Positions 3,818-59,425 of a stretch of DNA of 64,000 nt are shown piece by piece; the first letter of the stretch is position 1, and each line of letters begins with the position of its first letter. Under the pieces are notes generated by a model. The model worked only from the letters and a program-made list of their open reading frames with translations, did no database searches and was not told where the DNA came from. The translations under genes were made by a program, and so were the position numbers. Source of the stretch: a bacterium (GTDB taxonomy: Bacteria > Patescibacteriota > CPR2 > UBA1875 > JAJYID01); the NCBI GenBank assembly GCA_021790235.1, contig JAJYID010000001.1:107228-171227 (forward strand), written 5' to 3'.

Positions 3818-3946
3818 ATGCCTGAACTTCCCGAAGTTGGTACTCCTCACTGTCATTTCGTGCCCCGACACGGAAACCATAACAATAAGATTCCCGATCG
3901 GGTCGGGAATGACATAAAAGAAAATGCCAGAATTGCCAGAAGTTGA
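3818..3946 (+). other. 42-codon upstream ORF beginning with a second copy of the mutM start (MPELPEV), preceded by a strong SD (aggag)
   Basis: 'atgcctgaacttcccgaagttg' at 3818 versus 'atgccagaattgccagaagttg' at 3924. The uORF reads through the inserted repeat and stops at TGA 3944-3946, out of frame with mutM. Confidence 0.35.
3851..3914. repeat. Full-length miniature hairpin repeat element (64 bp) with TIR tgtcatt/aatgaca and two internal hairpins
   Basis: Sequence is tgtcatttcgtgccccgacacggaaacc...attcccgatcgggtcgggaatgaca. The stems are ttcgtg/cacggaa and attcccga/tcgggaat. Confidence 0.7.
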
Positions 3947-10156: not shown

Positions 10157-10181
10157 TCCTAATTCAGTATTGAGCGTTGAA

Positions 10182-10208
10182 TGTCATTCTGAATTTGACC
10201 GAAGAATC
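10182..10208 (+). repeat. Hairpin repeat family unit in the rpsO-pnp intergenic region
   Basis: tgtcattctgaatttgaccgaagaatc. Confidence 0.6.
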
Positions 10209-10369
10209 TATATTCAATAAATCTGGCTTCCGAATCTAGCCCAAGTGACAAAAGAAGAACATTAATAAATTAAATTTTGAGAAACCGGAAATTTTAGCCG
10301 GGTAAGAAGAGTGGATTAACATCGGCTCCTTGAACTCGTTTGAAATCTCCATTTCTCAGAAAGGAAAAA

Positions 10370-14087: not shown

Positions 14088-14203
14088 ATTAAGCATATTT
14101 TACTTCTATTTGGTGTTAAAGACAAGGTGGGCAGTTGTTGGTGGTTTTCTTTTTCTAGGGCTTTATAGATTGAATCTGAGACTAAGAGTATGAACGTATT
14201 AAC

Positions 14204-14279
14204 ATATAAATATTAGCGTAGTGATTTTTTAAAAATTAAGCACAAATTTAACAAAAAGTAGTGTCAGTAGGCTGACACT
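14204..14279 (-). repeat. Left copy of an approximately 78-bp inverted repeat (hairpin agtgtcag-tagg-ctgacact plus conserved 27-mer)
   Basis: The reverse complement of 14204-14230 (aaaaaatcactacgctaatatttatat) matches 20355-20381 at 25 of 27 positions. The hairpin at 14260-14279 matches 20302-20329. Confidence 0.65.
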
Positions 14280-14414: not shown

Positions 14415-15104
14415 ATGCAAATAACTGAGGAAAATATTGCAAATGCTGAGGATTTGTCAGCGATCAATGAGCTCGTTTCAAAGTGTGAGTGTTGTGTCCT
14501 GCATGAGACAAAGACCAAGGATGTGCCGGGTGTCGGAAATGAGCATGCCGAGGTGATGTTTATCGGTGAAGCGCCCGGAAAAGATGAGGACTTGCAAGGC
14601 GAACCGTTTGTCGGTCGAGCTGGGCAGCTTCTAACGGGATTAATTCAAGGATTAGGTTGGGAGCGAAAAGATGCTTATATTGCAAATATTTTAAAACATC
14701 GGCCGCCGAACAACCGTGATCCCAAGCCGGAAGAGGCTGAAGCTTGCTGGCCGTATTTAAAGAGACAGATTCAACTAATCGATCCCAAACTAATCGTATT
14801 TTTAGGCCGACATGCCATGAACCGATTTTTTCCGACATTACAGATATCAAAGGTTCACGGAAATGCATTTCGAAAGGAGTTACATTTTGAAGGACTGGAT
14901 TCCCGCCTCCGCGGGAATGGCAAAGGAGGCCGAAAACAAGTATTTTTAGCCTTGTATCATCCGGCAGTAGCGCTGTATAACGGCTCAATGAAAGAAACAT
15001 TGCAAACCGATTTCAATAAAATTCCCAAGATACTCGCGAAAATTGACGAAGAAAATGACCTTCAAAATGACAAGAGGGAAAATAAGCAGACAAAATTATT
15101 TTGA
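14415..15104 (+). CDS. Uracil-DNA glycosylase, family 4, carrying an in-frame repeat-derived insertion
   Basis: [23 protein letters not shown] and YHPAVALYN motifs, with a Cys cluster CECCVLH near the N-terminus. Confidence 0.85.
14864..14922. repeat. Hairpin repeat family element inside the udg coding sequence
   Basis: tgcatttcgaaagg...ggattcccgcctccgcgggaatggca, with the perfect palindrome attcccgc/gcgggaat at 14899-14918. It encodes [19 protein letters not shown]. Confidence 0.55.
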
Positions 15105-15269: not shown

Positions 15270-17072
15270 ATGAACGTGCAAACTAAACTTAAAAAACCGA
15301 AAAGAAAGATGCCGACAGCTCATGATATTGCCATAAAACAAAAAAATATCAAGACGACAAACGAGAGTGTCATACAAAGTTCTCACCAGACAACAACAGG
15401 AAAGGGAGTTTTGAAGATTATCCCTCTCGGCGGTGTTGGTGAGATTGGTAAAAACTTGACCGTCTATGAATACGATAATGACATTATCATCATCGATATG
15501 GGTTTTATATTCCCTGATAGCGATATGCTAGGAGTGGATTACCTTATTCCCGATGTTTCCTATTTACAAGATAAAAAGGATAAAATAAGAGGTGTTTTAA
15601 TCACTCATGGTCATGAAGACCATATTGGAGGTATTCCTTATATTATGCCTCAAATCAGCGCTCCGATTTATGCTCCAAAGCTGACTTGCGGACTGATTGA
15701 AGCAAAACTGGAAGAACACCCTCAGGCAAGAGGAGTAAAACTTAATGTAATTGATCCGGACAAGGACAAGATCAAGCTTGGCGCCTTTGAAATCGAATGG
15801 TTTCGCGTAGCGCACTCGATACCGGATGCTGTCGGAATTGTGCTAAAAACTCCGACCACGGGTCGAGTTATCTATACCGGAGATTTTCGTTTCGACCATT
15901 CCCCAGTGGATGGGCGGAAAACTGATATTGCCAAACTCTCCAAACTTGGTGATGAAGGTGTACTTGCCCTTCTTTCGGATAGTACAAATGCTGAGGTGCC
16001 GGGTTTCTCTATAAGTGAGAAAACCATTGCCGGCACATTTGACAGTATTTTTGAAAAAGCTGAAGGGCGTATTATTATCGCCTCATTTGCTTCTCAAATT
16101 AACAGAATCCAAATGGTAATAAATGCCACTCAGAAACATAATCGAAGAATTGCTTTTTCTGGTAGGAGCTTGCTTCGCAATATTGAAGTGGCTGTTCGTC
16201 TCGGATATCTCAAAATTCCGCAAGGCCTTGCTGTCAAAATTCAGGATATTGGCAACCTTCCGGCGAATCGGGTGGTAGTTATGAGTACCGGTTCACAAGG
16301 TGAAGCGATGTCGGCCTTGTCGAGAATGGCTAGAGGTGAACATAAACAGGTGAAGATTGGTAAAGGCGATACAGTGGTGTATTCATCCTCGCCCATTCCG
16401 GGTAATGAATCTGCAATCACTGCTGTCGTCGATGACCTTTTCAGGCGGGGTGCGGAAGTAGTCTTTGATGAGAAAAACGGTTCACGTACTCATGTGTCGG
16501 GTCATCCGGGGCAAGAGGAGTTAAAGCTGATGATGGAGCTGGTGCGTCCGAAATATCTGGTTCCTTGGCATGGTGAAGTTCATCATCTAGTTCATCACGC
16601 TCAGTTGGCGCAAGAGGTTGGTATTCCTAAAGAAAATACACCGATCCTTGATATTGGTGATGTTATGGAAGTGACGAATGACAGAGTGGTGAAAACTGAC
16701 AGGCGAGTCCAGAACGGGGTAGTGCTTGTCGATGGTCTCGGCATCGGCGATGTCGGTGAAATAGTCCTTCGTGATCGTAAAGTGATGGCAACTGAAGGTA
16801 TGTTTGTGGTCATATGTACGGTTGATAAAAAAACGGGCCGACTCTTAACTTCACCGGATATCATTTCCCGCGGATTCATTTACATGCGGGAAAACGAACA
16901 GTTGGTTAATAACGCTCGGAATGAAGTGAAGAAGATGATGGCTAGGCATGATGGCGAATCGCTGCCTGACTGGATGAAAATGAAACTAAAAATCCGCGAT
17001 CATGTCAGCAACTATCTCTATAGCCATACCAAAAGAAGCCCGATGGTTATCTCAGTGATAATAGAGGTGTAA
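15270..17072 (+). CDS. rnj: Ribonuclease J
   Basis: Metallo-beta-lactamase/beta-CASP enzyme with HGHEDHIGG. SD aaaggagg. Confidence 0.9.
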   Translation: MNVQTKLKKPKRKMPTAHDIAIKQKNIKTTNESVIQSSHQTTTGKGVLKIIPLGGVGEIGKNLTVYEYDNDIIIIDMGFIFPDSDMLGVDYLIPDVSYLQDKKDKIRGVLITHGHEDHIGGIPYIMPQISAPIYAPKLTCGLIEAKLEEHPQARGVKLNVIDPDKDKIKLGAFEIEWFRVAHSIPDAVGIVLKTPTTGRVIYTGDFRFDHSPVDGRKTDIAKLSKLGDEGVLALLSDSTNAEVPGFSISEKTIAGTFDSIFEKAEGRIIIASFASQINRIQMVINATQKHNRRIAFSGRSLLRNIEVAVRLGYLKIPQGLAVKIQDIGNLPANRVVVMSTGSQGEAMSALSRMARGEHKQVKIGKGDTVVYSSSPIPGNESAITAVVDDLFRRGAEVVFDEKNGSRTHVSGHPGQEELKLMMELVRPKYLVPWHGEVHHLVHHAQLAQEVGIPKENTPILDIGDVMEVTNDRVVKTDRRVQNGVVLVDGLGIGDVGEIVLRDRKVMATEGMFVVICTVDKKTGRLLTSPDIISRGFIYMRENEQLVNNARNEVKKMMARHDGESLPDWMKMKLKIRDHVSNYLYSHTKRSPMVISVIIEV

Positions 17073-19345: not shown

Positions 19346-20307
19346 TGACACCGGCAAAATTTATTAGAACTACAATCTCAGAACGAGAGGTATTAGGAGA
19401 GAAACTAGCCAAAAAGAGAAATTCTCTTCATTTGGATCTCAAAGATGTCGAAAAGGCTACGAAAATTCCAGCCCGCCATGTCAAAAATATCGAGGAAGGC
19501 AACTTTACTAAACTGCCGCCAGACGTTTATACCAGAGGATTCGTAAGGACTTATGCTGCCTTTTTAGGCCTGAACGTCAAAAAAATTATCAACTCTTATG
19601 ATAAGGAAAGGGGACTTGAAAAAAAGCTGAAGATGAAGGATAAACCATCTCCTCAGCCAAAAACAACACTGAAAACTCCGCGAATGGTTCTAACCCCTAA
19701 AAAATTAATTGCTCTAGGGTCGTCTCTGGCGGTTTTGGCAATTCTTTTTTTCATTGGCTGGCAAATTAAAATCTTGTCGGCACCGCCGGTTCTAAATGTG
19801 ACTAGTCCGGCTGACAACTCAAATGTCAGTGAAGACTATATTTATGTGGCGGGTCAAACTGACCGGGATGCTGATCTCTACATTAATGATGTTAAAGTTG
19901 GTACTGACGATACCGGAACCTTCAAAGAAAGAGTGAGTTTACAAGATGGAGTGAATATTATTGAAATTAAGGCAAAGAATAAAATGGACAAGCAAACTGT
20001 TGTGGAACGTAAGATCTCAGCGACGTTGCCGCTTACGACTGCTACGGTTGATAGAACTATTTATCCTTTGGAAGTTAAGGTCGTTATCGGCCCTCATCCA
20101 GCAAATGTCGAAATAGTGCGCGATGGCGAAAAGCTTAATGTGTCCGGAGTGATGTTGGCCGGATCAACTCAAATCTTTTATGCTCAAAACAATATTGTGC
20201 TATCAACGAACAACGCCGGTAGTACGAAGGTGATTTTGAATGGCAAAGATTTAGGGCCGCTCGGTCAAGAAGGACAAACTATAAAGGACAAAAAGTTTTC
20301 GAAATAG
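19345..20307 (+). CDS. RodZ-like HTH/DUF4115 membrane protein
   Basis: An N-terminal HTH (...RGFVRTYAAFLGL), one transmembrane segment and a C-terminal beta domain. Confidence 0.7.
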   Translation: MTPAKFIRTTISEREVLGEKLAKKRNSLHLDLKDVEKATKIPARHVKNIEEGNFTKLPPDVYTRGFVRTYAAFLGLNVKKIINSYDKERGLEKKLKMKDKPSPQPKTTLKTPRMVLTPKKLIALGSSLAVLAILFFIGWQIKILSAPPVLNVTSPADNSNVSEDYIYVAGQTDRDADLYINDVKVGTDDTGTFKERVSLQDGVNIIEIKAKNKMDKQTVVERKISATLPLTTATVDRTIYPLEVKVVIGPHPANVEIVRDGEKLNVSGVMLAGSTQIFYAQNNIVLSTNNAGSTKVILNGKDLGPLGQEGQTIKDKKFSK

Positions 20308-20381
20308 TGTCAGCTTACTGACACTATTTTCGCCAATTTTAAACTTAAACCTTCAAAAAATCACTTCACTAATATTTATAT
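20302..20381 (+). repeat. Right copy of the inverted repeat; its hairpin doubles as the intrinsic terminator of the rodZ-like gene
   Basis: 12-bp stem aaatagtgtcag/ctgacactattt with loop ctta, overlapping stop codon 20305-20307. The conserved 27-mer lies at 20355-20381. Confidence 0.65.
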
Positions 20382-20623
20382 ATGAAAAGTAATTGTTTTT
20401 AACTACCACGATTATTGAATTAAACAAAAAAACTAATTCTTCCCTCTATTCTAATCCCACAAATCAGATATCCACGATATTCCCTAAACCCATCAGACTA
20501 TTTAAAAACAAAACTTTGCAGAACTTACCTCACCTTGAAGGTTCTATGGTATAATTTGATCATTCAAAACCTCTGGTTCTTGGTTCCTATTCAAAATTAA
20601 AATACTAAATTCAAGGAGACAAT

Positions 20624-26398: not shown

Positions 26399-27211
26399 GT
26401 GAAGAAGAGAATCGATGTGCTTTTAACTGAAAAAGGGTTCGCTGAAAGCCGTGCTAAGGCGCAGGCTTTTTTGCTGTTAGGGCAAGTCTATGTTGATGCC
26501 AAAAAAGTTGATAAAGCTGGAACTTTGATTGAGGATAACGCTAGTCTTGAATTGAGGGAAAGATTTCCCTATGTTTCCAGAGGCGCTTTAAAAATTCAGA
26601 AGGCTTACGAGGAATTTGGACTGGATTTTAATGAAAAAGTTATTTGTGACATCGGTGCGTCAACCGGAGGATTTACGGACTTTGTGCTGCAACATGGTGC
26701 AAAGAAAGTGTATGCGATTGATGTTGGTTATGGGCAACTTGAGCAGAAATTACGTGAGAACAGTAGGGTGCATGTTATGGAAAGAACTAATTTCCGTGAG
26801 ATAGATTCATGGGACGATTTTTCTAAACGCGTCATCCTGGCCCGTCCAGGATCAAAAAAGTATAAAAACGAGTCAAATTTTGGTCAAACCAGAATGACAG
26901 TTGAGCGAATTAATTTCTTCGTTTGTGACGTTTCGTTTATTTCCCTCAAAAAAATAATTCCTCAGATTAAAAAAATTGTAGATTACCCGATTGAGTGTGT
27001 TTTGCTCATTAAACCGCAATTCGAAGTTGGCAAGGAAATCGCTGACAAAACCAAAGGCGTGATTAAAAACGAGGAAATTCAGAGGTCAGTGGTCGAAGAT
27101 ATTGCGGAGTTCAGCGAGGAGCAAAGGTTTCATGTTGAAGGCATTACCGATTCGCCGATTACTGGTGCCAAAGGGAATAAAGAATTTTTAATCTACTTAA
27201 GTTATAATTAA
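26399..27211 (+). CDS. tlyA: TlyA family rRNA 2'-O-methyltransferase, carrying an in-frame repeat-derived insertion
   Basis: An S4 domain followed by the SAM motif DIGASTGGFTD and then DVSFISL. Confidence 0.85.
   Translation: MKKRIDVLLTEKGFAESRAKAQAFLLLGQVYVDAKKVDKAGTLIEDNASLELRERFPYVSRGALKIQKAYEEFGLDFNEKVICDIGASTGGFTDFVLQHGAKKVYAIDVGYGQLEQKLRENSRVHVMERTNFREIDSWDDFSKRVILARPGSKKYKNESNFGQTRMTVERINFFVCDVSFISLKKIIPQIKKIVDYPIECVLLIKPQFEVGKEIADKTKGVIKNEEIQRSVVEDIAEFSEEQRFHVEGITDSPITGAKGNKEFLIYLSYN
26830..26900. repeat. Full-length hairpin repeat element inside the tlyA coding sequence
   Basis: cgtcatcctggcccgtccaggatc...ggtcaaaccagaatgacag. The TIR is gtcatcctgg/ccagaatgac (9 of 10). It encodes approximately SKRVILARPGSKKYKNESNFGQTRMTV. 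Confidence 0.6.
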
Positions 27212-27214
27212 TAA

Positions 27215-27564
27215 ATGGACTACGCAAAGAAAAACCAGAGGAACCAATATTTGCTCTAAAAGGAGTAGAAGGCTTTCAATTTGATCTAATAAATAAAGAT
27301 ATTGAGATTTACTACGAGGATTCAACGCTGGGTCACGATGACTTTGTGAAGGCAAAAAACTTCACACATTTCTATTATATATTGGAAGGCAGCGGTTTCT
27401 TTACGATTGATGGTAAAGAAGTTAATGTGGGAAAAGGAATGATTGTAGAAATTCCTGCAGGGATAGGTTTTGCCTTTAATGGGAAGATGAAATTGATTCT
27501 AATAGTTGATAAACCTTTTGATCCAGAGAATCTGGAAGTGACCCGAAAAAACTTAGATGTCTAG
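27215..27564 (+). pseudogene. Cupin domain protein, apparently frameshifted in the A-rich sequence aaagaaaaacc near its 5' end
   Basis: ATG 27215 opens MDYAKKNQRNQYLL*. The adjacent frame, open from 27208 with no start codon, reads ...KPEEPIFALKGVEGFQFDL...ILEGSGFFTIDGKEVNVGKGMIVEIPAG (cupin). Confidence 0.5.
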
Positions 27565-28649
27565 ACATTAAACTTAAAGACCATGACGTCGCCGTCTTGG
27601 ACGGTGTAATCTTTGCCTTCGAGTCTCACTTTACCGGCAGATTTGGCCCCGGTCCAACCCTTAAACTCAACTAGATCTTTCCAATTTATAGTTTCGGCTT
27701 TAATGAATCCCTTTTCAAAATCGGTATGAATGACGCCGGCGGCTTGTGGTGCTTTGTCACCTTTATGAATGGTCCAAGCTTTGATTTCCTTCTCGCCGGC
27801 GGTGAAGTAAGTTTCTAGACCAAGCAAGTCATAACCACTCTTAATTAACCGGTTCAGCCCGGCTTCAGTTTGGCCGAGTTCAGACAAATATTCCTTTTTT
27901 TCACTTAGCGAAAGTTCATTCAATTCAGATTCAATTTTCGCTGAAATGAGAACATAGTCGGAAGTTTTCACGACATATCCTTCAATTGTCTTTTCGAGTT
28001 CTGATTTATTCTGCAAATGTTCCTCGTCGATATTGAAAATATAAATGTGCGGCTTCAAAGTCAGGAGATTTAGGTCTTTAATTTTCTCCAGCTCTTTTTC
28101 GGTTAAGTTCAGCTCGCGCGCGGCTTTTCCTGTTTCTAGATCGGCCTGAATTTTCTGAACTAAGACAAGAGTGTCTTTCAGTTTCGGATCGCCTTTGATA
28201 TCCTTGGTTAGCTTAGCGGTTCTTTTGCCAATGGTTTCAAGATCTGCCAGAACTAGCTCCATTCTAATAGTTTCGATGTCGGAGGCCGGATCAACCTTGC
28301 CGGCAACGTGAGTGACATTTGTGTCGTCAAAAACCCGGACCACTTCAGCTATAGCATCGCACTCACGAATATTTGCCAGAAATTTATTCCCCAGGCCTTC
28401 TCCTTCTGCCGCTCCCTTCACAATGCCGGCAATATCGATAAATTCCATAATTGCGGGGACTATTTTCTGGGTTGGGATAACTTCGGCTAATTTTTGTAAC
28501 CTTTCATCAGGTACTTCCACAATTCCTATATTTGGATCGATAGTGCAAAATGGGTAATTCGAAGCCTCCGCCTGAACGCGAGTTAAGGCGTTAAAAAGAG
28601 TGCTTTTGCCGACATTTGGCAGGCCGACTATGCCGATAGATAAGCTCAT
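27561..28649 (-). CDS. ychF: Redox-regulated ATPase YchF
   Basis: MSLSIGIVGLPNVGKSTLFNALT with a C-terminal TGS-like domain. Confidence 0.95.
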   Translation of the reverse strand: MSLSIGIVGLPNVGKSTLFNALTRVQAEASNYPFCTIDPNIGIVEVPDERLQKLAEVIPTQKIVPAIMEFIDIAGIVKGAAEGEGLGNKFLANIRECDAIAEVVRVFDDTNVTHVAGKVDPASDIETIRMELVLADLETIGKRTAKLTKDIKGDPKLKDTLVLVQKIQADLETGKAARELNLTEKELEKIKDLNLLTLKPHIYIFNIDEEHLQNKSELEKTIEGYVVKTSDYVLISAKIESELNELSLSEKKEYLSELGQTEAGLNRLIKSGYDLLGLETYFTAGEKEIKAWTIHKGDKAPQAAGVIHTDFEKGFIKAETINWKDLVEFKGWTGAKSAGKVRLEGKDYTVQDGDVMVFKFNV

Positions 28650-28934: not shown

Positions 28935-30617
28935 GTGATAGCAGTGAAGAAACTATTCATAATAGTCATTGTCGCACTTGTTGTGGTGATGACACTGGCT
29001 GTCTTTGTCTCGCCGGCAATGGCGGCTTGTGACCTAAATGTCACAAGCTTCGGAATGTCAAGCAATTCAGGACAGGCGGGTGCGGCCTTCGATGTGTACG
29101 GAACATACACGGGAACGGCTGCCCCAACCGGCGACATCCTGTATGTGTTGCCGTCTGATCAGACGGATGTAATTGGGACGTTCAGTGCGACTGGAGGAAA
29201 TATCTCTGGCACAGCGACGATTCCATTAGATGCGACTGAGGGGGGACACCTAATTGACTATGTTCTACCCTTTAGTGATGCAACGTGTGGTGTGTATGGA
29301 CCAATACCTATTAGTACTTACACAGTTGTTGGCGGACCAGTGGCCAGAGATTATTACTGGACGTGGTATGACCAGCAGTCGCGGAATATGACTGACTGGG
29401 TTCTTATGGGCAATCCATCTACCACTAGTACCCTTAGTTTTAGTCTTAATATCGCTGGTAACGCTCAGATTGTTGGTGACCTTGGATATGGAGAAGGTAA
29501 GGTAGGACCACAAGAGACCTTAACTTCGACATATCCGGGAGTTATGGGCGGTCCGGTGAAAGTATCTTCATTAACTGGTGAGAAAGGTTTCGTAAGCCAA
29601 CGAGTACTGTTTGGTAACTCCTTTGAGGAGATACCAGGTATCGAAGAATCCCAGCTTTCTGGGCATTACTATTGGGCCTGGTACGACCAGCAATCTCCCG
29701 GCATGCTTAATTGGGTCCTAGTAGCCAACCCCAGTACCTCAGACGATGTCTACTATCAGATCAAGATTGCCGGCGACGTCAAGGATACCGGCAAGCTTGT
29801 CCCTGGGGATAAAGTTACACCAACCTTCCCGGGCGTCCTAGGCGGACCTGTCGAGGTTACTAGCTGTTCGGCAGCTTTTGACCAGTACGGGAATTGTTCG
29901 GGGACTAATCCCAAAGTCATCGCTTCCCAGCGGGTGCTGTCTAACTATGGTACTGCCTTCAATGAAGTACCTGGCATTCCGGCGAATGAACTTTCCGGAG
30001 ATTATCTCTGGACATGGTATGACAACCAAAGCCCAGGCGCTACTGATTGGGTCCTAGTAGCCAACCCCAGTACCTCAGACGATGTCTACTATCAGATCAA
30101 GATTGCCGGCGACGTCAAGGATACCGGCAAGCTTGTCCCTGGGGATAAAGTTACACCAACCTTCCCGGGCGTCCTAGGCGGACCTGTCGAGGTTACTAGC
30201 TGTTCGGCAGCTTTTGACCAGTACGGGAATTGTTCGGGGACTAATCCCAAAGTCATCGCTTCCCAGCGTAGTATCTGGGGTCCATCCTTTGAGGAGGTGC
30301 CGGGTATGTCGATCGGAAGCCTGTCTTGGGATTATGGTTGGACTTGGTATGACCAAAAGAGTCCTGGTTCTACTAACTGGATTTTGGTGGCCAATCCTGG
30401 TGATACACCTGTAGATTACCAGATTATAATTGGTGGTCAAGTCATGCCGACCAGTCTGGTGAATCCTGGGACGATCTCTGCTCATGGCAGGGTGACCCCC
30501 ACATTTCCAGGCGTGATGGGTGGCCCAGTTGAGATCGTAGCTGATGGTAAGGTGATTGCATCTCAACGAGTGCTCTGGAATGGATACTTTAATGAGGTAT
30601 TAGGGAGACAGTATTAA
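28935..30617 (+). CDS. Secreted protein with four ~105-112-aa modules of an unassigned repeat (W-x-W-Y-D...NPS...PGVxGGPV...ASQR)
   Basis: The signal peptide ends AMA. There is an N-terminal Ig-like region, then four modules starting YYWTWYDQQS, YYWAWYDQQS, YLWTWYDNQS and YGWTWYDQKS. Confidence 0.7.
   Translation: MIAVKKLFIIVIVALVVVMTLAVFVSPAMAACDLNVTSFGMSSNSGQAGAAFDVYGTYTGTAAPTGDILYVLPSDQTDVIGTFSATGGNISGTATIPLDATEGGHLIDYVLPFSDATCGVYGPIPISTYTVVGGPVARDYYWTWYDQQSRNMTDWVLMGNPSTTSTLSFSLNIAGNAQIVGDLGYGEGKVGPQETLTSTYPGVMGGPVKVSSLTGEKGFVSQRVLFGNSFEEIPGIEESQLSGHYYWAWYDQQSPGMLNWVLVANPSTSDDVYYQIKIAGDVKDTGKLVPGDKVTPTFPGVLGGPVEVTSCSAAFDQYGNCSGTNPKVIASQRVLSNYGTAFNEVPGIPANELSGDYLWTWYDNQSPGATDWVLVANPSTSDDVYYQIKIAGDVKDTGKLVPGDKVTPTFPGVLGGPVEVTSCSAAFDQYGNCSGTNPKVIASQRSIWGPSFEEVPGMSIGSLSWDYGWTWYDQKSPGSTNWILVANPGDTPVDYQIIIGGQVMPTSLVNPGTISAHGRVTPTFPGVMGGPVEIVADGKVIASQRVLWNGYFNEVLGRQY
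29710..30268 (+). repeat. Perfect 223-bp direct repeat (29710-29932 = 30046-30268, 336-bp period) inside the secreted-protein gene
   Basis: Base-by-base comparison of the two segments shows no mismatch. Confidence 0.9.
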
Positions 30618-40150: not shown

Positions 40151-40591
40151 ATGAGAAATCTAAGAAAAAAGTTTACTCTGGGAGAAGCGAAGGGTTTTAC
40201 ACTTATTGAGTTAGTCGTAGTTATGGCTATTATCGCTGTTTTAGCGGTGCTGGTTATAGGTGCTATCACCATAGCCCGTCAAACTGCAATGGAGACTGCA
40301 GACAGATCAAACGTCAGAACATTGCAAACCTGTCTCGAAGCAGATTACACGAAATTTAAGGCTTATTGTGGTGCGACGGGTCAAACTGCATGTCCTACTT
40401 TGCCTACTACTGGTAGTGTAATGTTTACTGCTATGGCTGCTGATATAGGAAGTTGTAAACCAGCTACTGGGACTTCAGGTGATGGTGCCTCTGATGGAGT
40501 AACAGTGACTGCCTGGTCTAAGAATAGTTATACTATTCAAGCACTATCTCATGATAACTCAACTACTATAGATAGTCCTGTTTCTCCTTAG
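40151..40591 (+). CDS. Type IV pilin (paralog 1)
   Basis: Class III signal KG/FTLIELVVVMAIIAVLA. SD aaaggagg. Confidence 0.85.
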   Translation: MRNLRKKFTLGEAKGFTLIELVVVMAIIAVLAVLVIGAITIARQTAMETADRSNVRTLQTCLEADYTKFKAYCGATGQTACPTLPTTGSVMFTAMAADIGSCKPATGTSGDGASDGVTVTAWSKNSYTIQALSHDNSTTIDSPVSP

Positions 40592-40669
40592 ATAATTTGA
40601 TCGGGATATCTTTCATAACTAGCCATGGCGAGACGGCTCCTCATGGCTGTTATGGGAAATATTAAACAA

Positions 40670-41113
40670 ATGGAAGAGGGAGTGAAAAAGCTAAAAAAAA
40701 ATCAAGGTTTTACACTCATTGAGTTAGTCGTAGTTATGGCTATTATCGCTGTTTTAGCGGTGCTGGTTATAGGTGCTATCACGGTTGCTAGAAACACTGC
40801 TGCAGAAACTACAAATCGATCGAATGCTCGGACATTTCAAGCAGGTTTGGAAAAATATTTTTCTAATAATAAAAGTTATCCTGCCTACGTTGTTACCGGT
40901 GGTTTAGCCTCATTTGATACTTTGTACAACGATAATCTTAGAGATTTAGGCATTACGCATGCGGATTATCCCAGTGGCTGTGACACTACTGGTCAAGCAC
41001 ACGGTGGAGGCCAATATAGTTATAATTCTTCTACTGGTCAGTATACTCTTACGGTTTGGAACTATGATTGTACAAAAGTTTTATCCGGATCAAGCAATCA
41101 GTTTACCAACTAA
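40670..41113 (+). CDS. Type IV pilin (paralog 2)
   Basis: QG/FTLIELVVVMAIIAVLA. The ORF is open from 40625, but the start is chosen nearer the signal (MEEGVKKLKKNQG). Confidence 0.8.
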   Translation: MEEGVKKLKKNQGFTLIELVVVMAIIAVLAVLVIGAITVARNTAAETTNRSNARTFQAGLEKYFSNNKSYPAYVVTGGLASFDTLYNDNLRDLGITHADYPSGCDTTGQAHGGGQYSYNSSTGQYTLTVWNYDCTKVLSGSSNQFTN

Positions 41114-41127
41114 GATGATTAACAGTA

Positions 41128-41706
41128 ATGTTTTTGTATAAGAGAAAAAATATTTTCGGAAAATTAGAAGGTTTTACACTTATTGAGTTAGTCGTAGTTA
41201 TGGCTATTATTGCTCTTCTTGCCGCTTTAATCATAGGAGCCATCGCTATAACGCGCCAACAAGCCGATGTTACGAGGCTACGATCTGATGCTCATAATAT
41301 TCAGACAGCTTTAGAGGGATACTTTGCAAAGAACAGACATTTCCCTCCTGATTATCGAGTAGATGCCTACTCGCTTTATGCAGATACTTCTGCTTATTAT
41401 ACTGATGGCAAAACTTATGCAAACCAAGATGGAGCGCATCCTTTAAGTACTATGGGGGCATCATCTTGGCCCACTCCCCCGGCAAACAACGGCAGCAAGG
41501 GGCTGATATGTTACTCAGCCGGTCTCAACGCACAGGATTATTGGTTTTGGATCTTGACTCCGGGCGAGGTGCAAGCCGGTAAAGTGTGTATTGCCCCGAG
41601 TTGCACGAACTCTACTTGTGGATTTATAGCTGCAGATCCTGGCAGTAAGATTCATTGTCCGAATGGCACGACCTCGAGCGGTTGTTCATCTCAGTATTGG
41701 TATTAG
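41128..41706 (+). CDS. Type IV pilin (paralog 3, larger C-terminal domain with several Cys)
   Basis: EG/FTLIELVVVMAIIALLA. Confidence 0.8.
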   Translation: MFLYKRKNIFGKLEGFTLIELVVVMAIIALLAALIIGAIAITRQQADVTRLRSDAHNIQTALEGYFAKNRHFPPDYRVDAYSLYADTSAYYTDGKTYANQDGAHPLSTMGASSWPTPPANNGSKGLICYSAGLNAQDYWFWILTPGEVQAGKVCIAPSCTNSTCGFIAADPGSKIHCPNGTTSSGCSSQYWY

Positions 41707-41770
41707 AAAATTTGTTCTCTGTGTAAGACTGGAGGATAAGGCTGGGGACGGTTCTCTTTTTAAAGCAGAT

Positions 41771-41799
41771 TTGACGGAAACTTTCAAATTTTCTATAAT
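41771..41799 (+). promoter_or_regulatory. Sigma70-like promoter (TTGACG-17-TATAAT) of the transposase gene, 6 nt before the ATG (leaderless)
   Basis: ttgacg at 41771-41776, a 17-nt spacer, tataat at 41794-41799, and the ATG at 41806. Confidence 0.7.
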
Positions 41800-41805
41800 T
41801 TGTTT

Positions 41806-42489
41806 ATGCCCAGACAAGCTAGAATATTGCCACCGAACGGTTTTTATCATATCGTCTGCCGCGGAAACAACAAACAGAATATATTTCGGGATGATTCAGA
41901 TAAGGACAAATATCTTGAGTTGGCTTTAAGATACAAGGGAGAGCATCCCATGTCTCTATTCCATTATTGTTTAATGACTAATCATGTTCATTTGCTTCTT
42001 GAAACGAATGAACAAACTGATCTTTCAAACTTTATGAAAAGGCTTAATCTTGCCTATTTTCATCATTTTAAAAATAAATATGGTTATGTTGGCCATTTCT
42101 GGCAGGACAGATTCAAAAGCTTCTTAATCGAGCGGGATAACTATCTTTTGGTTTGTGGAAAGTATATCGAGCTGAACCCGGTAAGGGCTAAAATGGTGGC
42201 GAGACCTGAAGACTTTGAATACTCGAGTTATGGGTTTTATACTGATAACAAGAAGAGTGATATTTTAGAACACAACCCTCTGTTTTTTGAACTGAGCTCC
42301 AAGTCCAAGGATTGTTCTAGTCTGTACCGTGACTTTGTTGTGCCTCAAGAAGAGATAGAACAGAGGTTTAAGGGTCCCTTCTGGGGTAGTGAGAAATTTG
42401 TTACTAGAATGAGAAAGAGGCTTGACTATAAAAAGGCCGCTGTTCAAGCAGGTAGAAAGGTTAATTTTCGGAAAATCAAAGCGCAATAG
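41806..42489 (+). CDS. REP-associated tyrosine transposase-like / IS200-family Y1 (HUH) transposase
   Basis: FYHIVCRGNN, HUH motif TNHVHLLL, and the catalytic Tyr region YIELNPVRAKM. Confidence 0.8.
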   Translation: MPRQARILPPNGFYHIVCRGNNKQNIFRDDSDKDKYLELALRYKGEHPMSLFHYCLMTNHVHLLLETNEQTDLSNFMKRLNLAYFHHFKNKYGYVGHFWQDRFKSFLIERDNYLLVCGKYIELNPVRAKMVARPEDFEYSSYGFYTDNKKSDILEHNPLFFELSSKSKDCSSLYRDFVVPQEEIEQRFKGPFWGSEKFVTRMRKRLDYKKAAVQAGRKVNFRKIKAQ

Positions 42490-42555
42490 AGAACCGTCCC
42501 CTAAGTGGGGGATAATGTTCTTTTGTATTACTAGGTTGCTGAGTATAATATATTT

Positions 42556-43362
42556 ATGTTTATTTTCTTGATTTTGTTTTTTGTTTTTGGTCTGATCATT
42601 GGCAGTTTTTTGAATGTTCTGATATATAGATTAGAAAACAAAAAACGTAAAACTCTGTGGGGCAGGTCTTTTTGTCCTCATTGTGAGAAGCGAATTGAAT
42701 GGTATGATAATATTCCGGTTGTGTCCTTTCTGTTTTTGGGCGGCAAGTGCCGGCATTGCAAAAAGAAAATTTCCATTCAATACCCGCTGGTGGAGCTGAC
42801 AACAGGATTTTTGTTCGCACTGCTTTTTGTAATCCCGAACGGGGCAATGGCGGAGTTGGGGAATCCCTTTGCTTACATTAATTTAATCTTCTGGTTTTTC
42901 TTTGCCTCGTGTTTGATGGTTGTTTTTGTTTACGACTTAAAACATCAAATCATTCCGGACCAGGTAATTTATACTGCACTTATTACCGGCTTCCTCTATG
43001 TGTCAATGCAATTTGCTTTACTAGGAGACTTTAAATATTTAGCTGATCATCTGTCATCTGCATTGATTGCCGGAGGTTTTTTCTATATTTTAGCAGCCAT
43101 ATCAAACGGCAAATGGATGGGAGGAGGTGATATTAAACTGGTATCCTTCATGGGCTTAGTACTTGGATGGCAGGGTACTGTTATTTCTCTATATGTTGCT
43201 TTTGTTTTAGGTGCTATCATGGGCGTGATTTTGCTGATATCAAAGAAAAAAAAATTTGGTTCAAAGATCCCCTTTGGCCCTTTTCTAATCATAGGAAATT
43301 TTATAGGCCTTTTTTTTGGGGAGCAACTCATTAACTTTTATGTTAAAATGTTTTTAAGTTAA
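42556..43362 (+). CDS. pilD: Prepilin peptidase (A24 family) PilD
   Basis: Zinc-binding CPHC...CRHC, multiple transmembrane segments, and the catalytic region GGGDIKL. Confidence 0.9.
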   Translation: MFIFLILFFVFGLIIGSFLNVLIYRLENKKRKTLWGRSFCPHCEKRIEWYDNIPVVSFLFLGGKCRHCKKKISIQYPLVELTTGFLFALLFVIPNGAMAELGNPFAYINLIFWFFFASCLMVVFVYDLKHQIIPDQVIYTALITGFLYVSMQFALLGDFKYLADHLSSALIAGGFFYILAAISNGKWMGGGDIKLVSFMGLVLGWQGTVISLYVAFVLGAIMGVILLISKKKKFGSKIPFGPFLIIGNFIGLFFGEQLINFYVKMFLS

Positions 43363-43374
43363 CTGGATATTCTT

Positions 43375-44058
43375 ATGATGTGGAGGGTTAAAAATAATAA
43401 AGGATTTACACTGGTTGAGCTCATAGTGGTTATGTCAATAACCGGTATTTTGCTTGCGCTTATTTATGGCGGATATTCCAGTACCAGAAAAGGCCAGTAT
43501 GTTCAGTATATGGCGAATCTTACCCAGACTAATATCCGAAGCTCCTTTATAGATATTATCTCTACAAAAGTGGAAACAGCAGGTAACTGTAATGGTTTAT
43601 CGCCTGTGATAAAAGTTGTGGCAATAAAGTTAGGTTCATCTTCCACACCTATCACTGAGGTTCCTATTTGTAATGATAATAGTGGCGTACTGCAGGATCC
43701 GACTACGAATATTGAAACTATTGATCCGTCAGAGAGCTTAAATTTTCAGGAGAATTTAAGTATGGACTTTTGTACTCCTTATGCGACCAACTACTCTTGC
43801 ACTAATCCGACTAAAACAGGTTATCTTTATCTAATTTTTACAAGTCCATACGGAAAATATTACAGTTACTATAGTGGTTCAGATCAAATAACAGATTTAT
43901 GGACCTATCAAATTAGTAACTGGCAGCATAACGCAGATATGATTTATACGCCATCTAGTGACCCAAGTATAGGTTATATAACTCTTCATTTAACTGATGA
44001 TACCGGTAATACGTCAGAACTTAATATTACAGGTGTTGGTAATGTCGAAAAGCCATGA
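43375..44058 (+). CDS. Minor pilin / pseudopilin
   Basis: KG/FTLVELIVVMSITGILLA prepilin signal. Confidence 0.75.
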   Translation: MMWRVKNNKGFTLVELIVVMSITGILLALIYGGYSSTRKGQYVQYMANLTQTNIRSSFIDIISTKVETAGNCNGLSPVIKVVAIKLGSSSTPITEVPICNDNSGVLQDPTTNIETIDPSESLNFQENLSMDFCTPYATNYSCTNPTKTGYLYLIFTSPYGKYYSYYSGSDQITDLWTYQISNWQHNADMIYTPSSDPSIGYITLHLTDDTGNTSELNITGVGNVEKP

Positions 44059-44630: not shown

Positions 44631-44633
44631 GAA

Positions 44634-58500: not shown

Positions 58501-58501
58501 C

Positions 58502-58954: not shown

Positions 58955-58993
58955 GATCTTTCCTTGTCCTTTCGGGAAGTCGTTCAAGATGAT
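58925..58993. repeat. Two inverted hairpin repeat units (58925-58948 on +, 58955-58993 on -)
   Basis: cgtcattctgaggaacgacgaatc on the + strand, and the reverse complement atcatcttgaacgacttcccgaaaggacaaggaaagatc. Confidence 0.65.
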
Positions 58994-59007
58994 AGAAAGA
59001 AAAGATT

Positions 59008-59289
59008 GTGTCATATTACGTCTACATTTTAGCAAATAGAAATAACAAAGTGCTTTATACGGGTATGACTAATAATCTCGAAAGAAGAATTTTCGAACAC
59101 AAAAATAAATTGATTAGGGGTTTTACCGAAAAATATAATTTGAATAAATTAGTATATTTTGAGGAATTTCCTACACCAAAAGAGGCCATAGAAAGTGAAA
59201 AAATGATTAAGGGATGGATTAGAAAAAAGAAAATTAAACTGATAGAATCAAAAAATATAAACTGGGATGATTTATCATTGTCATTCTGA
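59008..59289 (+). CDS. GIY-YIG nuclease family protein (UPF0213/YhbQ-like)
   Basis: YYVYILANRNNKVLYTGMTNNLERRIFEHK (GIY...YTG...R..EH), with a GTG start. Confidence 0.85.
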   Translation: MSYYVYILANRNNKVLYTGMTNNLERRIFEHKNKLIRGFTEKYNLNKLVYFEEFPTPKEAIESEKMIKGWIRKKKIKLIESKNINWDDLSLSF

Positions 59290-59411
59290 CGAAGGAAGAA
59301 TCTTTTTTGAGATCCTTCGTCGTTCCTCCTCAGGATGACAACTAAAGTATTAAGGATGACAATAATCAAAGACAATGTAACTAAGCCGGTCATTCTGAGG
59401 AACGAATAATC
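59279..59411. repeat. Cluster of hairpin repeat units (59279-59302 on +, 59311-59340 on -, 59388-59411 on +)
   Basis: tgtcattctgacgaaggaagaatc; the reverse complement tgtcatcctgaggaggaacgacgaaggatc; and ggtcattctgaggaacgaataatc. Confidence 0.7.
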
Positions 59412-59425
59412 TCATAAGAAAAATT

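What the first reader, a model, noticed from the sequence alone, without database searches (positions are those of the whole stretch)
26830..26900. Full-length repeat element inserted in-frame inside tlyA
The tlyA CDS contains cgtcatcctggcccgtccaggatc (hairpin atcctgg/ccaggat), a 36-nt A-rich spacer, then ggtcaaaccagaatgacag. The terminal inverted repeats are gtcatcctgg/ccagaatgac (9 of 10). This segment encodes approximately SKRVILARPGSKKYKNESNFGQTRMTV. It sits between the ERTNFREI segment and the conserved DVSFISL motif, where TlyA proteins normally have only a short linker. The frame stays open. It is the second example of the same element family embedded in an intact housekeeping gene in this window.
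Basis: partly seen in the sequence, partly recalled or inferred. Interest (0 to 1): 0.6.

Follow-up and report, generated by a model that had tools for sequence, protein, structure and literature searches.

The report
Hairpin repeat pair inside tlyA gene
A 68-base pair of inverted hairpin repeats, from a known repeat family cut by small GIY-YIG (Ssn) nucleases, sits in frame in a surface loop of the rRNA methyltransferase gene tlyA of an uncultured ultrasmall (CPR-like) bacterium; this is the same kind of event as the palindromic elements inside Rickettsia genes.

Summary
tlyA (26399-27211, +) carries at 26830-26898 two inverted hairpins. The frame stays open.

Solved TlyA structures and 80 distant genomic TlyA loci lack the segment. 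The closest orthologues split into a group that carries it and a group that has a 5-residue linker (D-E-L-P-E) instead.

The repeat is a known kind: the "CGTC-tagged REP" family (Di Nocera 2013), also called NTS/SRM (Chenal 2025). That family includes Neisseria dRS3 and Rickettsia RPE-4/6. Single-domain GIY-YIG Ssn nucleases bind and cut it as single-stranded DNA. The window encodes a 93-aa, Ssn-like GIY-YIG gene (59008-59289) bracketed by such hairpins.

A covariance model built without any tlyA copy scores both tlyA hairpins. Seven orthologues keep the insert in the same codon phase, with length differences of 6 and 24 nt, so it is most likely translated.

The same element, read in the same frame as the 3' arm here (DSGQARMT), also sits in YchF, MutS, DNA ligase, LysRS, RecJ and other genes in related and metagenomic contigs.

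It is a new member of a known kind. Mobilisation by the GIY-YIG nuclease is inferred, not shown.

The parts
26399..27211 (+). tlyA, the host gene: rRNA 2'-O-methyltransferase, 270 aa, GTG start
   Evidence: Pfam S4 (1.8e-8) and FtsJ (7.2e-42). NCBIfam TIGR00478 tly, 241.7 bits against a cut-off of 185.8. Catalytic K65/D177/K205/E262 are present. AlphaFold model pLDDT 90.5; its C-terminal domain superposes on M. tuberculosis TlyA 5kyg at 1.9 A.
26807..26902 (+). Lineage-specific segment of TlyA (residues 137-168, SWDDFSKRVILARPGSKKYKNESNFGQTRMTV). It replaces the E-L-P part of the D-E-L-P-E linker of insert-free orthologues, a net gain of 27 aa.
   Evidence: Alignments. PDB homologues skip residues 139-169/171. 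It lies between strands 124-127 and 173-176. In the model 138-148 is helical and 154-164 has pLDDT below 50.
26830..26853 (+). 5' hairpin module, head first: head CGTC, stem ATCCTGG/CCAGGAT, loop CCCGT, then C
   Evidence: Model R1, built without tlyA copies, scores it 26.4 bits, E about 1e-4.
26854..26876 (.). A-rich spacer between the two hairpins. It is not conserved between independent copies and is poorly conserved between orthologues.
   Evidence: Spacer nucleotide identity among 7 orthologues is 0.53, against 0.69 for the gene core. Spacers of independent dimers do not align.
26877..26898 (-). 3' hairpin module in inverted orientation. On the minus strand: GTC-ATTCTGGT-TTG-ACCAAAAT. On the plus strand it encodes FGQTRMT.
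   Evidence: Model R1 scores 26873-26900 (-) at 17.4 bits, E about 0.03. In orthologues it is the best conserved part: 0.89 nucleotide identity.
59008..59289 (+). Small single-domain GIY-YIG nuclease gene (93 aa), Ssn-like: the candidate partner protein of the repeat family
   Evidence: Pfam GIY-YIG 3.9e-18, covering residues 3-76 of 93. Hairpins of the family lie on both sides. Same size, domain content and flanking architecture as SsnA of Chenal et al. 2025 (PMC11893778).
58924..58951 (+). Degenerate hairpin upstream of the GIY-YIG gene. It overlaps the last codons and the stop of tsaE (58457-58954).
   Evidence: GTCATTCTGAGGAACGACGAATC. Weak model score, 10.7 bits, E 1.7. TsaE by Pfam.
59278..59341 (.). 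Inverted hairpin pair immediately after the GIY-YIG gene (GTCATTCTGA...TCAGGATGAC, 60 nt). It supplies the gene's stop codon.
   Evidence: Model R1: 59278-59305 (+) 23.9 bits, E 5e-4; 59308-59341 (-) 12.6 bits.
14895..14923 (-). Single hairpin of the same family (TTGCCATTCCCGCGGAGGCGGGAATCCAG) embedded in frame in a uracil-DNA glycosylase gene (14415-15104, +), read as [10 protein letters not shown]
   Evidence: Model R1 31.7 bits, E 4e-6. Sequence. Pfam UDG 8.6e-35.
3850..3915 (-). Intergenic inverted hairpin pair (GTCATTCCCGACCCGATCGGGAATC ... CGAAATGAC) between a DJ-1/PfpI gene and fpg
   Evidence: Model R1: 3886-3915 (-) 31.7 bits; 3850-3880 (+) 8.5 bits. Neighbouring genes by Pfam.
10181..10211 (+). 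Intergenic single hairpin after rpsO
   Evidence: Model R1 26.7 bits, E 8e-5. Sequence.

Best explanation
**What it is.** The segment is a non-autonomous "dimer": two inverted hairpin modules with their heads facing outward, 68 nt from head to head. It belongs to the CGTC-tagged REP / NTS-SRM repeat family. This family is recognised and cut, as single-stranded DNA, by small single-domain GIY-YIG nucleases of the Ssn type, and the window encodes one such gene bracketed by the same hairpins.

**What happened.** A dimer entered tlyA in an ancestor of a sub-clade of this CPR/Patescibacteria-like lineage. It landed in the exposed loop between strands beta4 and beta5 of the methyltransferase domain, in a reading frame without stop codons.

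**What it does now.** It is transcribed and translated with the gene as about 27 extra residues, a short helix followed by a disordered loop, without destroying the enzyme. The hairpin arms have stayed recognisable at the DNA level while the spacer drifted.

**Shown:**
- family membership of both hairpins;
- the insertion relative to orthologues;
- an intact frame and intact catalytic residues;
- conservation of codon phase across orthologues;
- recurrence of the same element, read in the same frame as the 3' arm here, in many other housekeeping genes.

**Inferred:**
- that it moved through a single-stranded DNA intermediate with the help of the GIY-YIG nuclease;
- that the protein is made and active;
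- that the insert is tolerated rather than useful.
For: **Family membership**
- In the window plus 8 syntenic relatives (196 kb) there are 75 model hits.
- All share head (C/T)GTC, a 7-9 bp stem that starts with AT, a 3-7 nt loop and a C(C/T)A tail. This is the published definition of CGTC REPs (PMC3733652).
- The stems covary: 97.3% of cells are paired, 63 cells carry changes on both sides, and 0 of 500 shuffles reach that.
- Two copies in relative L087 match the Neisseria NTS consensus CGTCATTCCCGCGMAVGCGGGAATCYRG exactly. By eye they bracket a GIY-YIG-like reading frame that the gene caller missed.
- Both tlyA hairpins score with a model that never saw them.
- The tlyA dimer aligns end to end with dimers of the same CTGG-stem subfamily elsewhere in the relatives: two intergenic (L003 15418-15494, L087 19894-19971) and one inside a GIY-YIG gene (L085 4839-4905).

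**Partner nuclease**
- The window has a 93-aa GIY-YIG gene with hairpins on both sides.
- The relatives carry such cassettes at different places in otherwise syntenic neighbourhoods.
- Chenal et al. 2025 showed SsnA binds and cuts NTS as ssDNA only, and described the NTS-ssnA-NTS layout as IS-like.

**Insertion in an intact, functional-looking gene**

**Translated rather than removed**
- Head-to-head lengths in 7 orthologues are 68, 68, 68, 74, 92, 74 and 68 nt. All start in phase 0 and none has a stop codon.
- In this frame the common loop CTTGA would give a TGA stop. The tlyA 5' hairpins have CCCGT, CTTGT or CTTAT instead.

**Constraint on the DNA**
- Among codon pairs that encode the same residue, 69% are identical in the insert against 43% in the gene core.
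- Nucleotide identity of the arms is 0.74-0.89, of the spacer 0.53.

**Recurrence**
- The same subfamily is read as DSGQARMT in YchF of relatives.
- In metagenome contigs it is in frame in MutS, ATP-dependent DNA ligase, LysRS, a P-type ATPase, a family-2 glycosyltransferase and further reading frames; RecJ and a FolC-like ligase carry the element in a different frame.

**Insertion mode**
- No target-site duplication is seen at three independent dimers. This fits a single-strand, REP/IS200-like mode and not a DDE transposase.
Against: - No Ssn nuclease has been shown to transpose anything. Chenal et al. only point out the IS-like architecture, and Di Nocera et al. concluded that CGTC REPs lack a dedicated transposase.
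- The tlyA hairpins do not match the published degenerate SRM search pattern. Their link to that family rests on the covariance model and on sharing genomes with canonical copies.
- The window's GIY-YIG protein could not be assigned to CDD family cd10448 with the tools at hand.
- The net gain of 81 nt is more than the 68-nt dimer. The conserved SWEDFSK stretch upstream of the head is unexplained, so this was not a clean insertion into the modern empty allele.
- A neighbour-joining tree of TlyA does not place the insert-bearing proteins in one clade, though support is low. A single ancestral insertion is therefore not proven.
- There are no transcript or protein data.
Confidence: 0.8

Rival explanations
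1. The segment is an ordinary lineage-specific loop extension of TlyA that only happens to resemble the repeat. It grew in place and was never a mobile element.
For: - A clade of orthologues shares it at the same position.
- Its first part (SWDDFSKRVIL) is modelled as a confident helix.
- It is at least as conserved as the gene core.
Against: - The same 68-77 nt two-hairpin unit, with the same arms and unrelated spacers, occurs between genes and inside other genes in the relatives and in metagenomes.
- A model that excludes all tlyA copies finds both arms.
- Synonymous sites in the arms are conserved beyond the level of the gene core, which a purely protein-level feature would not need.
Confidence: 0.03
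2. The dimer did not enter once. The beta4-beta5 loop of tlyA is a preferred target, or the insert-bearing allele spreads by recombination, so the pattern reflects several gains or transfers between lineages.
For: - Insert-bearing proteins are not monophyletic in the NJ tree, and P0003 (with insert) pairs with P0013 (without).
- The window's insert is closer to that of L085 (0.88) than to that of its syntenic sister L003 (0.79), while core identities are 0.69 and 0.70.
- By my reading of the peptides, other CPR TlyA proteins carry hairpin inserts of a different subfamily in the same loop (P0046, P0053, P0083, P0090).
- Insert-free relatives keep the outgroup-like L-P-E linker, which argues against loss by deletion.
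Against: - All seven sequenced insert-bearing orthologues share the same junctions, the same phase and the same upstream SWEDFSK stretch. This is most simply one event.
- Tree support is low for a 236-column protein alignment.
- Spacers of close pairs are alignable (codon table).
Confidence: 0.25
3. tlyA is a decaying pseudogene hit by a repeat, and the open frame is a coincidence.
For: Repeat insertions often inactivate genes. The window's own hairpin copies are more degenerate than those of its relatives.
Against: - The frame is open over 270 codons, and the same holds in 7 further orthologues that share only about 70% nucleotide identity.
- All invariant motifs and the catalytic tetrad are kept.
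- The model is confident outside the insert.
- Indels inside the insert are multiples of three.
Confidence: 0.02
4. The embedded hairpins are kept because they do something at the nucleic-acid level. For example, they could mark the gene for cleavage of incoming single-stranded DNA by the Ssn nuclease and so limit allelic replacement by transformation, as proposed for NTS in Neisseria. Or they could act as an mRNA structure that tunes translation.
For: - The arms are conserved at synonymous sites (0.63-0.74 identical codons against 0.43) while the spacer drifts.
- One stem position differs by a compensated change between orthologues: C-G in the window against T-A in L086.
- The window appears to encode type IV pilus / DNA-uptake-like genes. 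This rests on the prepilin-like repeats and on Pfam hits of the syntenic genes in relatives (PilM, T2SSE), not on a scan of the window's own genes.
- Chenal et al. showed that NTS lowers transformation in an SsnA-dependent way.
Against: - Conservation of the arms could equally come from gene conversion by other genomic copies, or from selection on the encoded residues.
- Several orthologous hairpins have decayed (L003, L088).
- No experiment exists in this lineage.
Confidence: 0.2

Closest known systems
CGTC-tagged repetitive extragenic palindromes (Di Nocera, De Gregorio and Rocco 2013, PMC3733652); the family includes Neisseria dRS3 and Rickettsia conorii RPE-4 and RPE-6
   Same: - Unpaired head CGTC/TGTC.
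- Stem that starts with A-T, T-A.
- Loop of 4-5 nt and a short C-rich tail.
- Mostly arranged as inverted dimers with variable spacers.
- Some copies lie inside genes, encode 20-30 residues, and often sit in DNA replication and repair genes.
   Different: - The stems here are 7-8 bp, against the 8-9 bp described.
- The tail of the tlyA copy is CAA, not CCA.
- The host is a CPR/Patescibacteria-like bacterium, a group outside the 5 phyla listed in that paper.
- That paper found no dedicated enzyme for the family.
NTS / Ssn-related motifs and the SsnA single-stranded-DNA nuclease family (Chenal et al. 2025, Nat Commun, PMC11893778)
   Same: - Hairpin with the conserved upstream GTCAT and a C after the palindrome.
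- Hundreds of copies per genome.
- A GIY-YIG gene of about 94 aa bracketed by the motif on both sides. The window has this layout at 58924-59341.
- Relatives carry copies identical to the Neisseria consensus.
   Different: - The tlyA hairpins have a CTGG stem and fail the paper's degenerate search pattern.
- In N. meningitidis only 2% of NTS lie inside genes. Here the share is 15% of a metagenome sample and 34% of a tlyA-centred, biased sample.
- The paper does not mention CPR bacteria or in-frame insertions.
- CDD family membership of the window's protein was not testable.
Rickettsia palindromic elements (RPE; Ogata et al. 2000, cited from my own knowledge, and as summarised in PMC10969869)
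   Same: - A palindromic repeat inserted in frame into many unrelated housekeeping genes.
- It adds a conserved peptide at places compatible with the fold.
- Hosts are small-genome, host-dependent bacteria.
   Different: - Classical RPE-1 is about 100-150 bp. This unit is 68 nt.
- The sequence family differs, except RPE-4/6, which Di Nocera et al. place in the CGTC family.
- The phylum is different.
REPINs and their RAYT tyrosine transposases (Bertels and Rainey 2011, PMC3116915)
   Same: - Two inverted REP hairpins plus a spacer form the replicating unit.
- The partner gene is flanked by the hairpins.
- There is no target-site duplication.
- Recognition is of single-stranded hairpins.
   Different: - The head is CGTC, not GTAG.
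- The partner is a GIY-YIG nuclease, not a Y1 (HUH) transposase.
- REPINs are almost entirely extragenic.

Membership tests
CGTC-tagged REP family (Di Nocera 2013) | Unpaired head CGTC (often TGTC) at one end | tested here: met
   The 5' hairpin has CGTC at 26830-26833. The 3' hairpin has TGTC on the minus strand. Across 61 strict hits the base before GTC is T in 42 and C in 14.
CGTC-tagged REP family (Di Nocera 2013) | Stem of 8-9 bp whose first two pairs are A-T and T-A; loop of 4-5 nt | tested here: inconclusive
   The AT start is met in both hairpins. The 5' hairpin has a 7-bp stem and a 5-nt loop. The 3' hairpin reads as 8 bp with one mismatch and a 3-nt loop, or as 7 bp with a 5-nt loop. 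The stem is one pair shorter than described.
CGTC-tagged REP family (Di Nocera 2013) | Short unpaired tail, mostly CCA | tested here: inconclusive
   The tlyA 5' hairpin has CAA. Family copies in the relatives have CCA (23), CTA (17) or CAA (6).
CGTC-tagged REP family (Di Nocera 2013) | Dispersed multi-copy family, mostly as inverted dimers | tested here: met
   75 model hits in 196 kb. Dimers align end to end. At least 120 metagenome stretches hold the exact subfamily hairpin.
NTS / Ssn-related motif (Chenal 2025) | Match to the published degenerate pattern HGTCWYN(0-2)YYVSBRHN(0-5)WNVSBRGN(0-2)RNCYNB | tested here: not met
   Neither tlyA hairpin matches, and the window has 0 matches. Relative L087 has 4 matches, including 2 exact matches to the Neisseria NTS consensus. 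The pattern is a search heuristic tuned to CCCGC-type stems.
NTS / Ssn-related motif (Chenal 2025) | Hairpin with conserved bases just upstream (GTCAT) and a C right after the palindrome, which give it an orientation | tested here: met
   GTCAT and the trailing C are invariant or nearly so in alignment A2, and both are present in the tlyA 5' hairpin.
NTS / Ssn-related motif (Chenal 2025) | Genome also encodes a single-domain GIY-YIG protein of about 94 aa flanked by the motif | tested here: met
   Window ORF 59008-59289: 93 aa, GIY-YIG as the only Pfam domain, hairpins at 58924-58951 and 59278-59341.
NTS / Ssn-related motif (Chenal 2025) | Partner protein belongs to CDD family cd10448 and cuts the motif as ssDNA | not testable with these tools
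   No CDD library and no wet assay were available. The nearest solved chains are UPF0213 proteins 1zg2 (1.7e-6) and 1ywl (4e-4).
Rickettsia palindromic elements (works-like comparison) | In-frame insertion into conserved proteins at positions compatible with the fold, with the same element in many unrelated genes | tested here: met
   tlyA loop between beta4 and beta5. The same element is in UDG, YchF, MutS, DNA ligase, LysRS, RecJ and other genes.
Rickettsia palindromic elements (membership) | Sequence similarity to one of the RPE families of Rickettsia | not tested
   No Rickettsia sequence was compared here. The link is indirect, through Di Nocera's assignment of RPE-4/6 to the CGTC family.
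REPIN / RAYT | GTAG head and a REP-associated tyrosine (Y1) transposase | tested here: not met
   The head is CGTC/TGTC, not GTAG. The gene flanked by the hairpins is a GIY-YIG gene. The window was not scanned exhaustively for a Y1 transposase.
Classical MITE of a DDE transposon | Target-site duplication flanking the terminal inverted repeats | tested here: not met
   No direct repeat flanks the dimers at L003 15418-15494, L087 19894-19971, L085 4839-4905 or in tlyA.
TlyA rRNA 2'-O-methyltransferase (host gene) | S4 domain plus FtsJ-type methyltransferase domain with the K-D-K-E tetrad and a SAM-binding glycine motif | tested here: met
   K65, D177, K205, E262 and DIGASTGGF are present. Structural match to TlyA chains.

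The most novel reading that the evidence does not exclude
The hairpin dimers are REPIN-like replicators whose missing enzyme is the Ssn-type GIY-YIG nuclease. That would make this a single-strand DNA mobile system built on a GIY-YIG fold. In CPR/Patescibacteria it would have inserted in frame into a large share of housekeeping proteins. The inserted arms would then be kept by selection at the DNA level, through nuclease recognition or control of transformation, rather than being neutral passengers.
Probability: 0.25. Interest if true: 0.7.

Novelty: new member of a known kind. Interest (0 to 1): 0.42.

Why it matters
In-frame palindromic insertions in essential genes are best known from Rickettsia. 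This case places the same phenomenon in the ultrasmall, host-dependent CPR bacteria, and in a repeat family whose partner nuclease was characterised only in 2025.

- **One dated event.** The same insertion is preserved across species that are saturated at synonymous sites. That allows a test of whether such inserts are neutral, useful to the protein, or kept for a role of the DNA hairpin.
- **An open question from two papers.** The GIY-YIG cassette sits at varying positions in syntenic genomes, and the dimers have no target-site duplication. Both observations bear on whether CGTC-type REPs have a dedicated mobilising enzyme.
- **Practical use.** Peptides such as VIL..PES..DSGQARMT, CHSREGGN and DSRLRGND in CPR proteins are repeat-derived. 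They should be masked in alignments, phylogenies and structure prediction.

Tried and rejected
- **Genome scan wasted.** It served as a control that the insert is absent in unrelated taxa. I treated it as a heuristic too narrow for these stems, not as evidence against kinship.\n- **Origin of SWDDFSK.** I considered that the stretch upstream of the head is a remnant of the 3' end of a GIY-YIG gene. The window's gene ends ...NWDDLS followed directly by a dimer. The motif lies next to a head at 3 independent places against about 0.8 expected (my estimate from the counts), and MAFFT did not align the two regions. This is too weak to claim.\n- **Single ancestral insertion.** The NJ tree is unresolved, so the question stays open.\n- **Taxonomy.** Cluster look-up returned no organism names. 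The CPR placement rests on named hits: candidate division WS5, Howlettbacteria, CPR2 and Patescibacteria group.\n- **SsnA comparison.** No supplementary files of Chenal et al. are held, so the N. meningitidis SsnA sequence could not be compared.\n- **Intein or intron.** Not supported. The insert is 27 aa, Pfam finds only S4 and FtsJ, and the frame is conserved.
Full report
**Observation**

The window has a G+C content of about 0.40. Its TlyA and the closest hits come from candidate division WS5, Howlettbacteria, CPR2 and "Patescibacteria group" genomes, so it is most likely a CPR/Patescibacteria bacterium.

ORF 26399-27211 (+, GTG start, 270 aa) is a TlyA-type rRNA 2'-O-methyltransferase:
- Pfam S4 and FtsJ;
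- TIGR00478 at 241.7 bits;
- structural match to TlyA chains, with the C-terminal domain at 1.9 A from 5kyg.

The terminal repeats match 9 of 10, the peptide is as stated and the frame is open. The spacer is 28 nt, not 36. The 3' end is itself a hairpin, so the segment is two inverted hairpins with their heads outward. The single strand folds that way, with z about -3 as DNA or RNA.

**It is an insertion**

Solved TlyA homologues align to residues 2-138 and 170/172-268 and skip the stretch between. Eighty TlyA loci from unrelated phyla span only 236-249 codons.

Among the closest homologues there are two groups:
- P0002-P0008 and P0010 (62-73% identity) carry DSW(E/D)DFSKRVIL...DSGQARMT at this place.
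- P0009, P0011-P0015, P0017, P0018 and P0020 (62-67% identity) have the 5-residue linker D-E-L-P-E. More distant CPR proteins have the same kind of L-P-E linker.

The AlphaFold model (pLDDT 90.5) puts the segment between strands 124-127 and 173-176. It shows a helix at 138-148 and a disordered stretch at 154-164. The catalytic K65, D177, K205 and E262 and the SAM motif are intact.

**What the repeat is**

The window and eight syntenic relatives were fetched through the exact proteins. They are full of modules of the form (C/T)GTC - ATYC.... - loop - ....GRAT - C(C/T)A. The inner stems differ between copies, with both sides changed: CTGG/CCAG, CCGCG/CGCGG, TGAA/TTCA.

I built a covariance model from 33 such hairpins, leaving out every tlyA copy.
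- It finds 75 copies in 196 kb.
- On their alignment 97.3% of cells pair and 63 cells have changes on both sides. No shuffle out of 500 reaches this, and sliding the partner column drops pairing to 15-61%.
- In the window it scores the tlyA 5' hairpin at 26.4 bits (E about 1e-4) and the 3' hairpin at 17.4 bits (E about 0.03).
- It also scores copies at 3886-3915, 14895-14923, 10181-10211 and 59278-59305.

The anatomy is that of the "CGTC-tagged REPs" of Di Nocera et al. 2013:
- head CGTC or TGTC;
- stem that starts with AT;
- loop of 4-5 nt and tail CCA;
- mostly inverted dimers, some of them intragenic.

That family includes Neisseria dRS3 and Rickettsia RPE-4/6 (PMC3733652).

It is also the NTS / Ssn-related motif of Chenal et al. 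2025, CGTCATTCCCGCGMAVGCGGGAATCYRG. The 94-aa single-domain GIY-YIG nuclease SsnA binds this motif and cuts next to it, but only in single-stranded DNA, and its gene is typically bracketed by the motif (PMC11893778).

Two copies in relative L087 match the Neisseria consensus exactly. By eye they bracket a GIY-YIG-like reading frame. The window has the same layout:
- a 93-aa GIY-YIG gene at 59008-59289;
- a degenerate hairpin at 58924-58951, which overlaps the end of tsaE;
- a complete 60-nt dimer at 59280-59339, which supplies the GIY-YIG gene's stop codon.

**The tlyA element as a member of that family**

Its arms belong to a CTGG-stem subfamily: GTCATYCTGGCTTGWCCAGRATC ... GATTCTGGWCAAGCCAGAATGAC. 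Dimers of this subfamily at other places in the relatives align with it end to end. Their spacers are unrelated and they have no target-site duplication.

The literal degenerate search pattern of Chenal et al. does not match this subfamily. I record that as a failed test of a heuristic, not of kinship.

**Translated, old and constrained**

In seven orthologues with DNA in hand, the unit starts in the same codon phase. It measures 68, 68, 68, 74, 92, 74 and 68 nt, so all differences are multiples of three, and no copy has a stop codon. In this frame the common loop CTTGA would read TGA; the tlyA 5' hairpins have CCCGT, CTTGT or CTTAT. Both facts are expected if the segment is translated, and neither would be needed if it were removed from the RNA.

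| Measure (7 orthologues) | Gene core | Insert |
|---|---|---|
| Pairwise nucleotide identity | 0.65-0.745 | 0.645-0.88 |
| Identity by part | 0.69 | arms 0.74-0.89; upstream SWDDFS 0.83; spacer 0.53 |
| Identical codons among same-residue pairs | 43% | 69% |

So the arms are held at the DNA level, or by gene conversion, or by selection on the residues, while the spacer drifts.

Whether there was one insertion is not settled. The shared junctions and the shared SWEDFSK stretch point to one event. Against that, a low-support NJ tree does not group the insert-bearing proteins, and the insert similarities are discordant with synteny.

**Recurrence in other genes**

- In the window a single hairpin lies in frame in a uracil-DNA glycosylase gene, read as [10 protein letters not shown].
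- In the relatives YchF carries in-frame inserts ending in GQARMT, and by my reading of the peptides TlyA has repeat-derived inserts at a second loop and as C-terminal tails.
- Of 74 tabulated model hits in the tlyA-centred loci, 25 lie inside ORFs of at least 150 aa.
- In an independent sample of 80 metagenome loci, 13 of 86 hairpins do. Nine of these are read as DSGQARMT, the same frame as the 3' arm of the tlyA copy.
- By Pfam the metagenome hosts include MutS, ATP-dependent DNA ligase, LysRS, a P-type ATPase and a family-2 glycosyltransferase with the DSGQARMT reading, and RecJ and a FolC-like ligase with the element in another frame.
- The element is still depleted in genes relative to the roughly 80% ORF coverage. 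It is nevertheless far more often intragenic than the 2% reported for N. meningitidis.

**Mechanism**

Shown:
- a family member lies in frame in an intact gene;
- a candidate partner nuclease gene is present in the characteristic layout.

Inferred:
- the dimer moved through single-stranded DNA with the help of the GIY-YIG nuclease;
- the supporting arguments are the analogy with REPIN/RAYT and IS200/IS605, the absence of target-site duplications and the variable positions of the GIY-YIG cassettes in syntenic genomes;
- survivors inside genes are those that landed in loops in a stop-free frame.

No Ssn protein has been shown to transpose DNA.

**Novelty**

Searches of the held literature found nothing that links these repeats or Ssn nucleases with CPR bacteria, or with in-frame insertions in them. 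Both the repeat family and the phenomenon of in-frame palindromic insertions are known. I therefore file this as a new member of a known kind, of moderate interest.

Noticed in passing
window 14895-14923 (-), inside ORF 14415-15104 (+): A single hairpin of the same family (CCCGCGGAGGCGGG stem, 31.7 bits) lies in frame in a uracil-DNA glycosylase gene and is read as [10 protein letters not shown].
   Followed up: partly
window 58457-59420: tsaE ends inside a degenerate hairpin. A 93-aa GIY-YIG gene follows and takes its stop codon from a complete 60-nt hairpin dimer. One more degenerate hairpin at 59389 precedes tsaB. This is the NTS-ssnA-NTS layout of Chenal et al. 2025.
   Followed up: partly
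L003 12058-13359, L086 7468-8649, L087 14016-15182, L091 11173-12354 (YchF genes of relatives; window YchF 27561-28649 is insert-free): YchF length varies from 362 to 433 aa among syntenic relatives. The cause is in-frame repeat inserts at one hotspot, several ending in the same GQARMT peptide as the tlyA insert.
   Followed up: partly
L085 1604-1712 and L086 6986-7112 (tlyA of relatives); proteins P0021, P0022, P0035, P0095 and others: A second loop of TlyA, after IKxI, carries independent inserts such as CHSRPP..IPAEAGI..NLDPRVKPEDD. Some TlyA proteins end in SCHSELDSES(R/I). By my reading these are translations of other stem variants of the same hairpin family.
   Followed up: partly
L085 4711-5052: A GIY-YIG gene of 113 aa itself contains a CTGG-type hairpin dimer (4839-4905) within its reading frame.
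   Followed up: no
window 26807-26829; window 59263-59279; L087 about 15385-15408 (-): The stretch just upstream of the tlyA dimer (TGGGACGATTTTTCT, W-D-D-F-S) resembles the end of the window's GIY-YIG gene (TGGGATGATTTATCA, W-D-D-L-S), which also directly precedes a dimer. This may be a remnant of a cassette end or may be chance: 3 independent cases against about 0.8 expected.
   Followed up: partly
L087 13627-13986: Two hairpins identical to the Neisseria meningitidis NTS consensus bracket a GIY-YIG-like reading frame that the gene caller missed, in a CPR-like genome.
   Followed up: partly
window 29349-30355: Four copies of a motif spaced 315-336 nt, with two 278-nt copies at 92% identity, lie inside the 560-aa ORF 28935-30617. 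This points to an internally repeated protein.
   Followed up: no
window 40151-45260: A run of small ORFs shares the prepilin-like N-terminal motif KGFTLVEL. Together with PilM- and T2SSE-type genes called at the syntenic positions in relatives, this suggests a type IV pilus / DNA-uptake-like cluster. It is relevant because Ssn nucleases act on incoming single-stranded DNA in Neisseria.
   Followed up: no
window 14199-14279 and 20306-20386: Two inverted repeats (35 nt at 86% and 25 nt at 92% complementarity) lie about 6 kb apart and bracket the region 14.3-20.3 kb, which holds the UDG, RNase J and FtsK genes.
   Followed up: no
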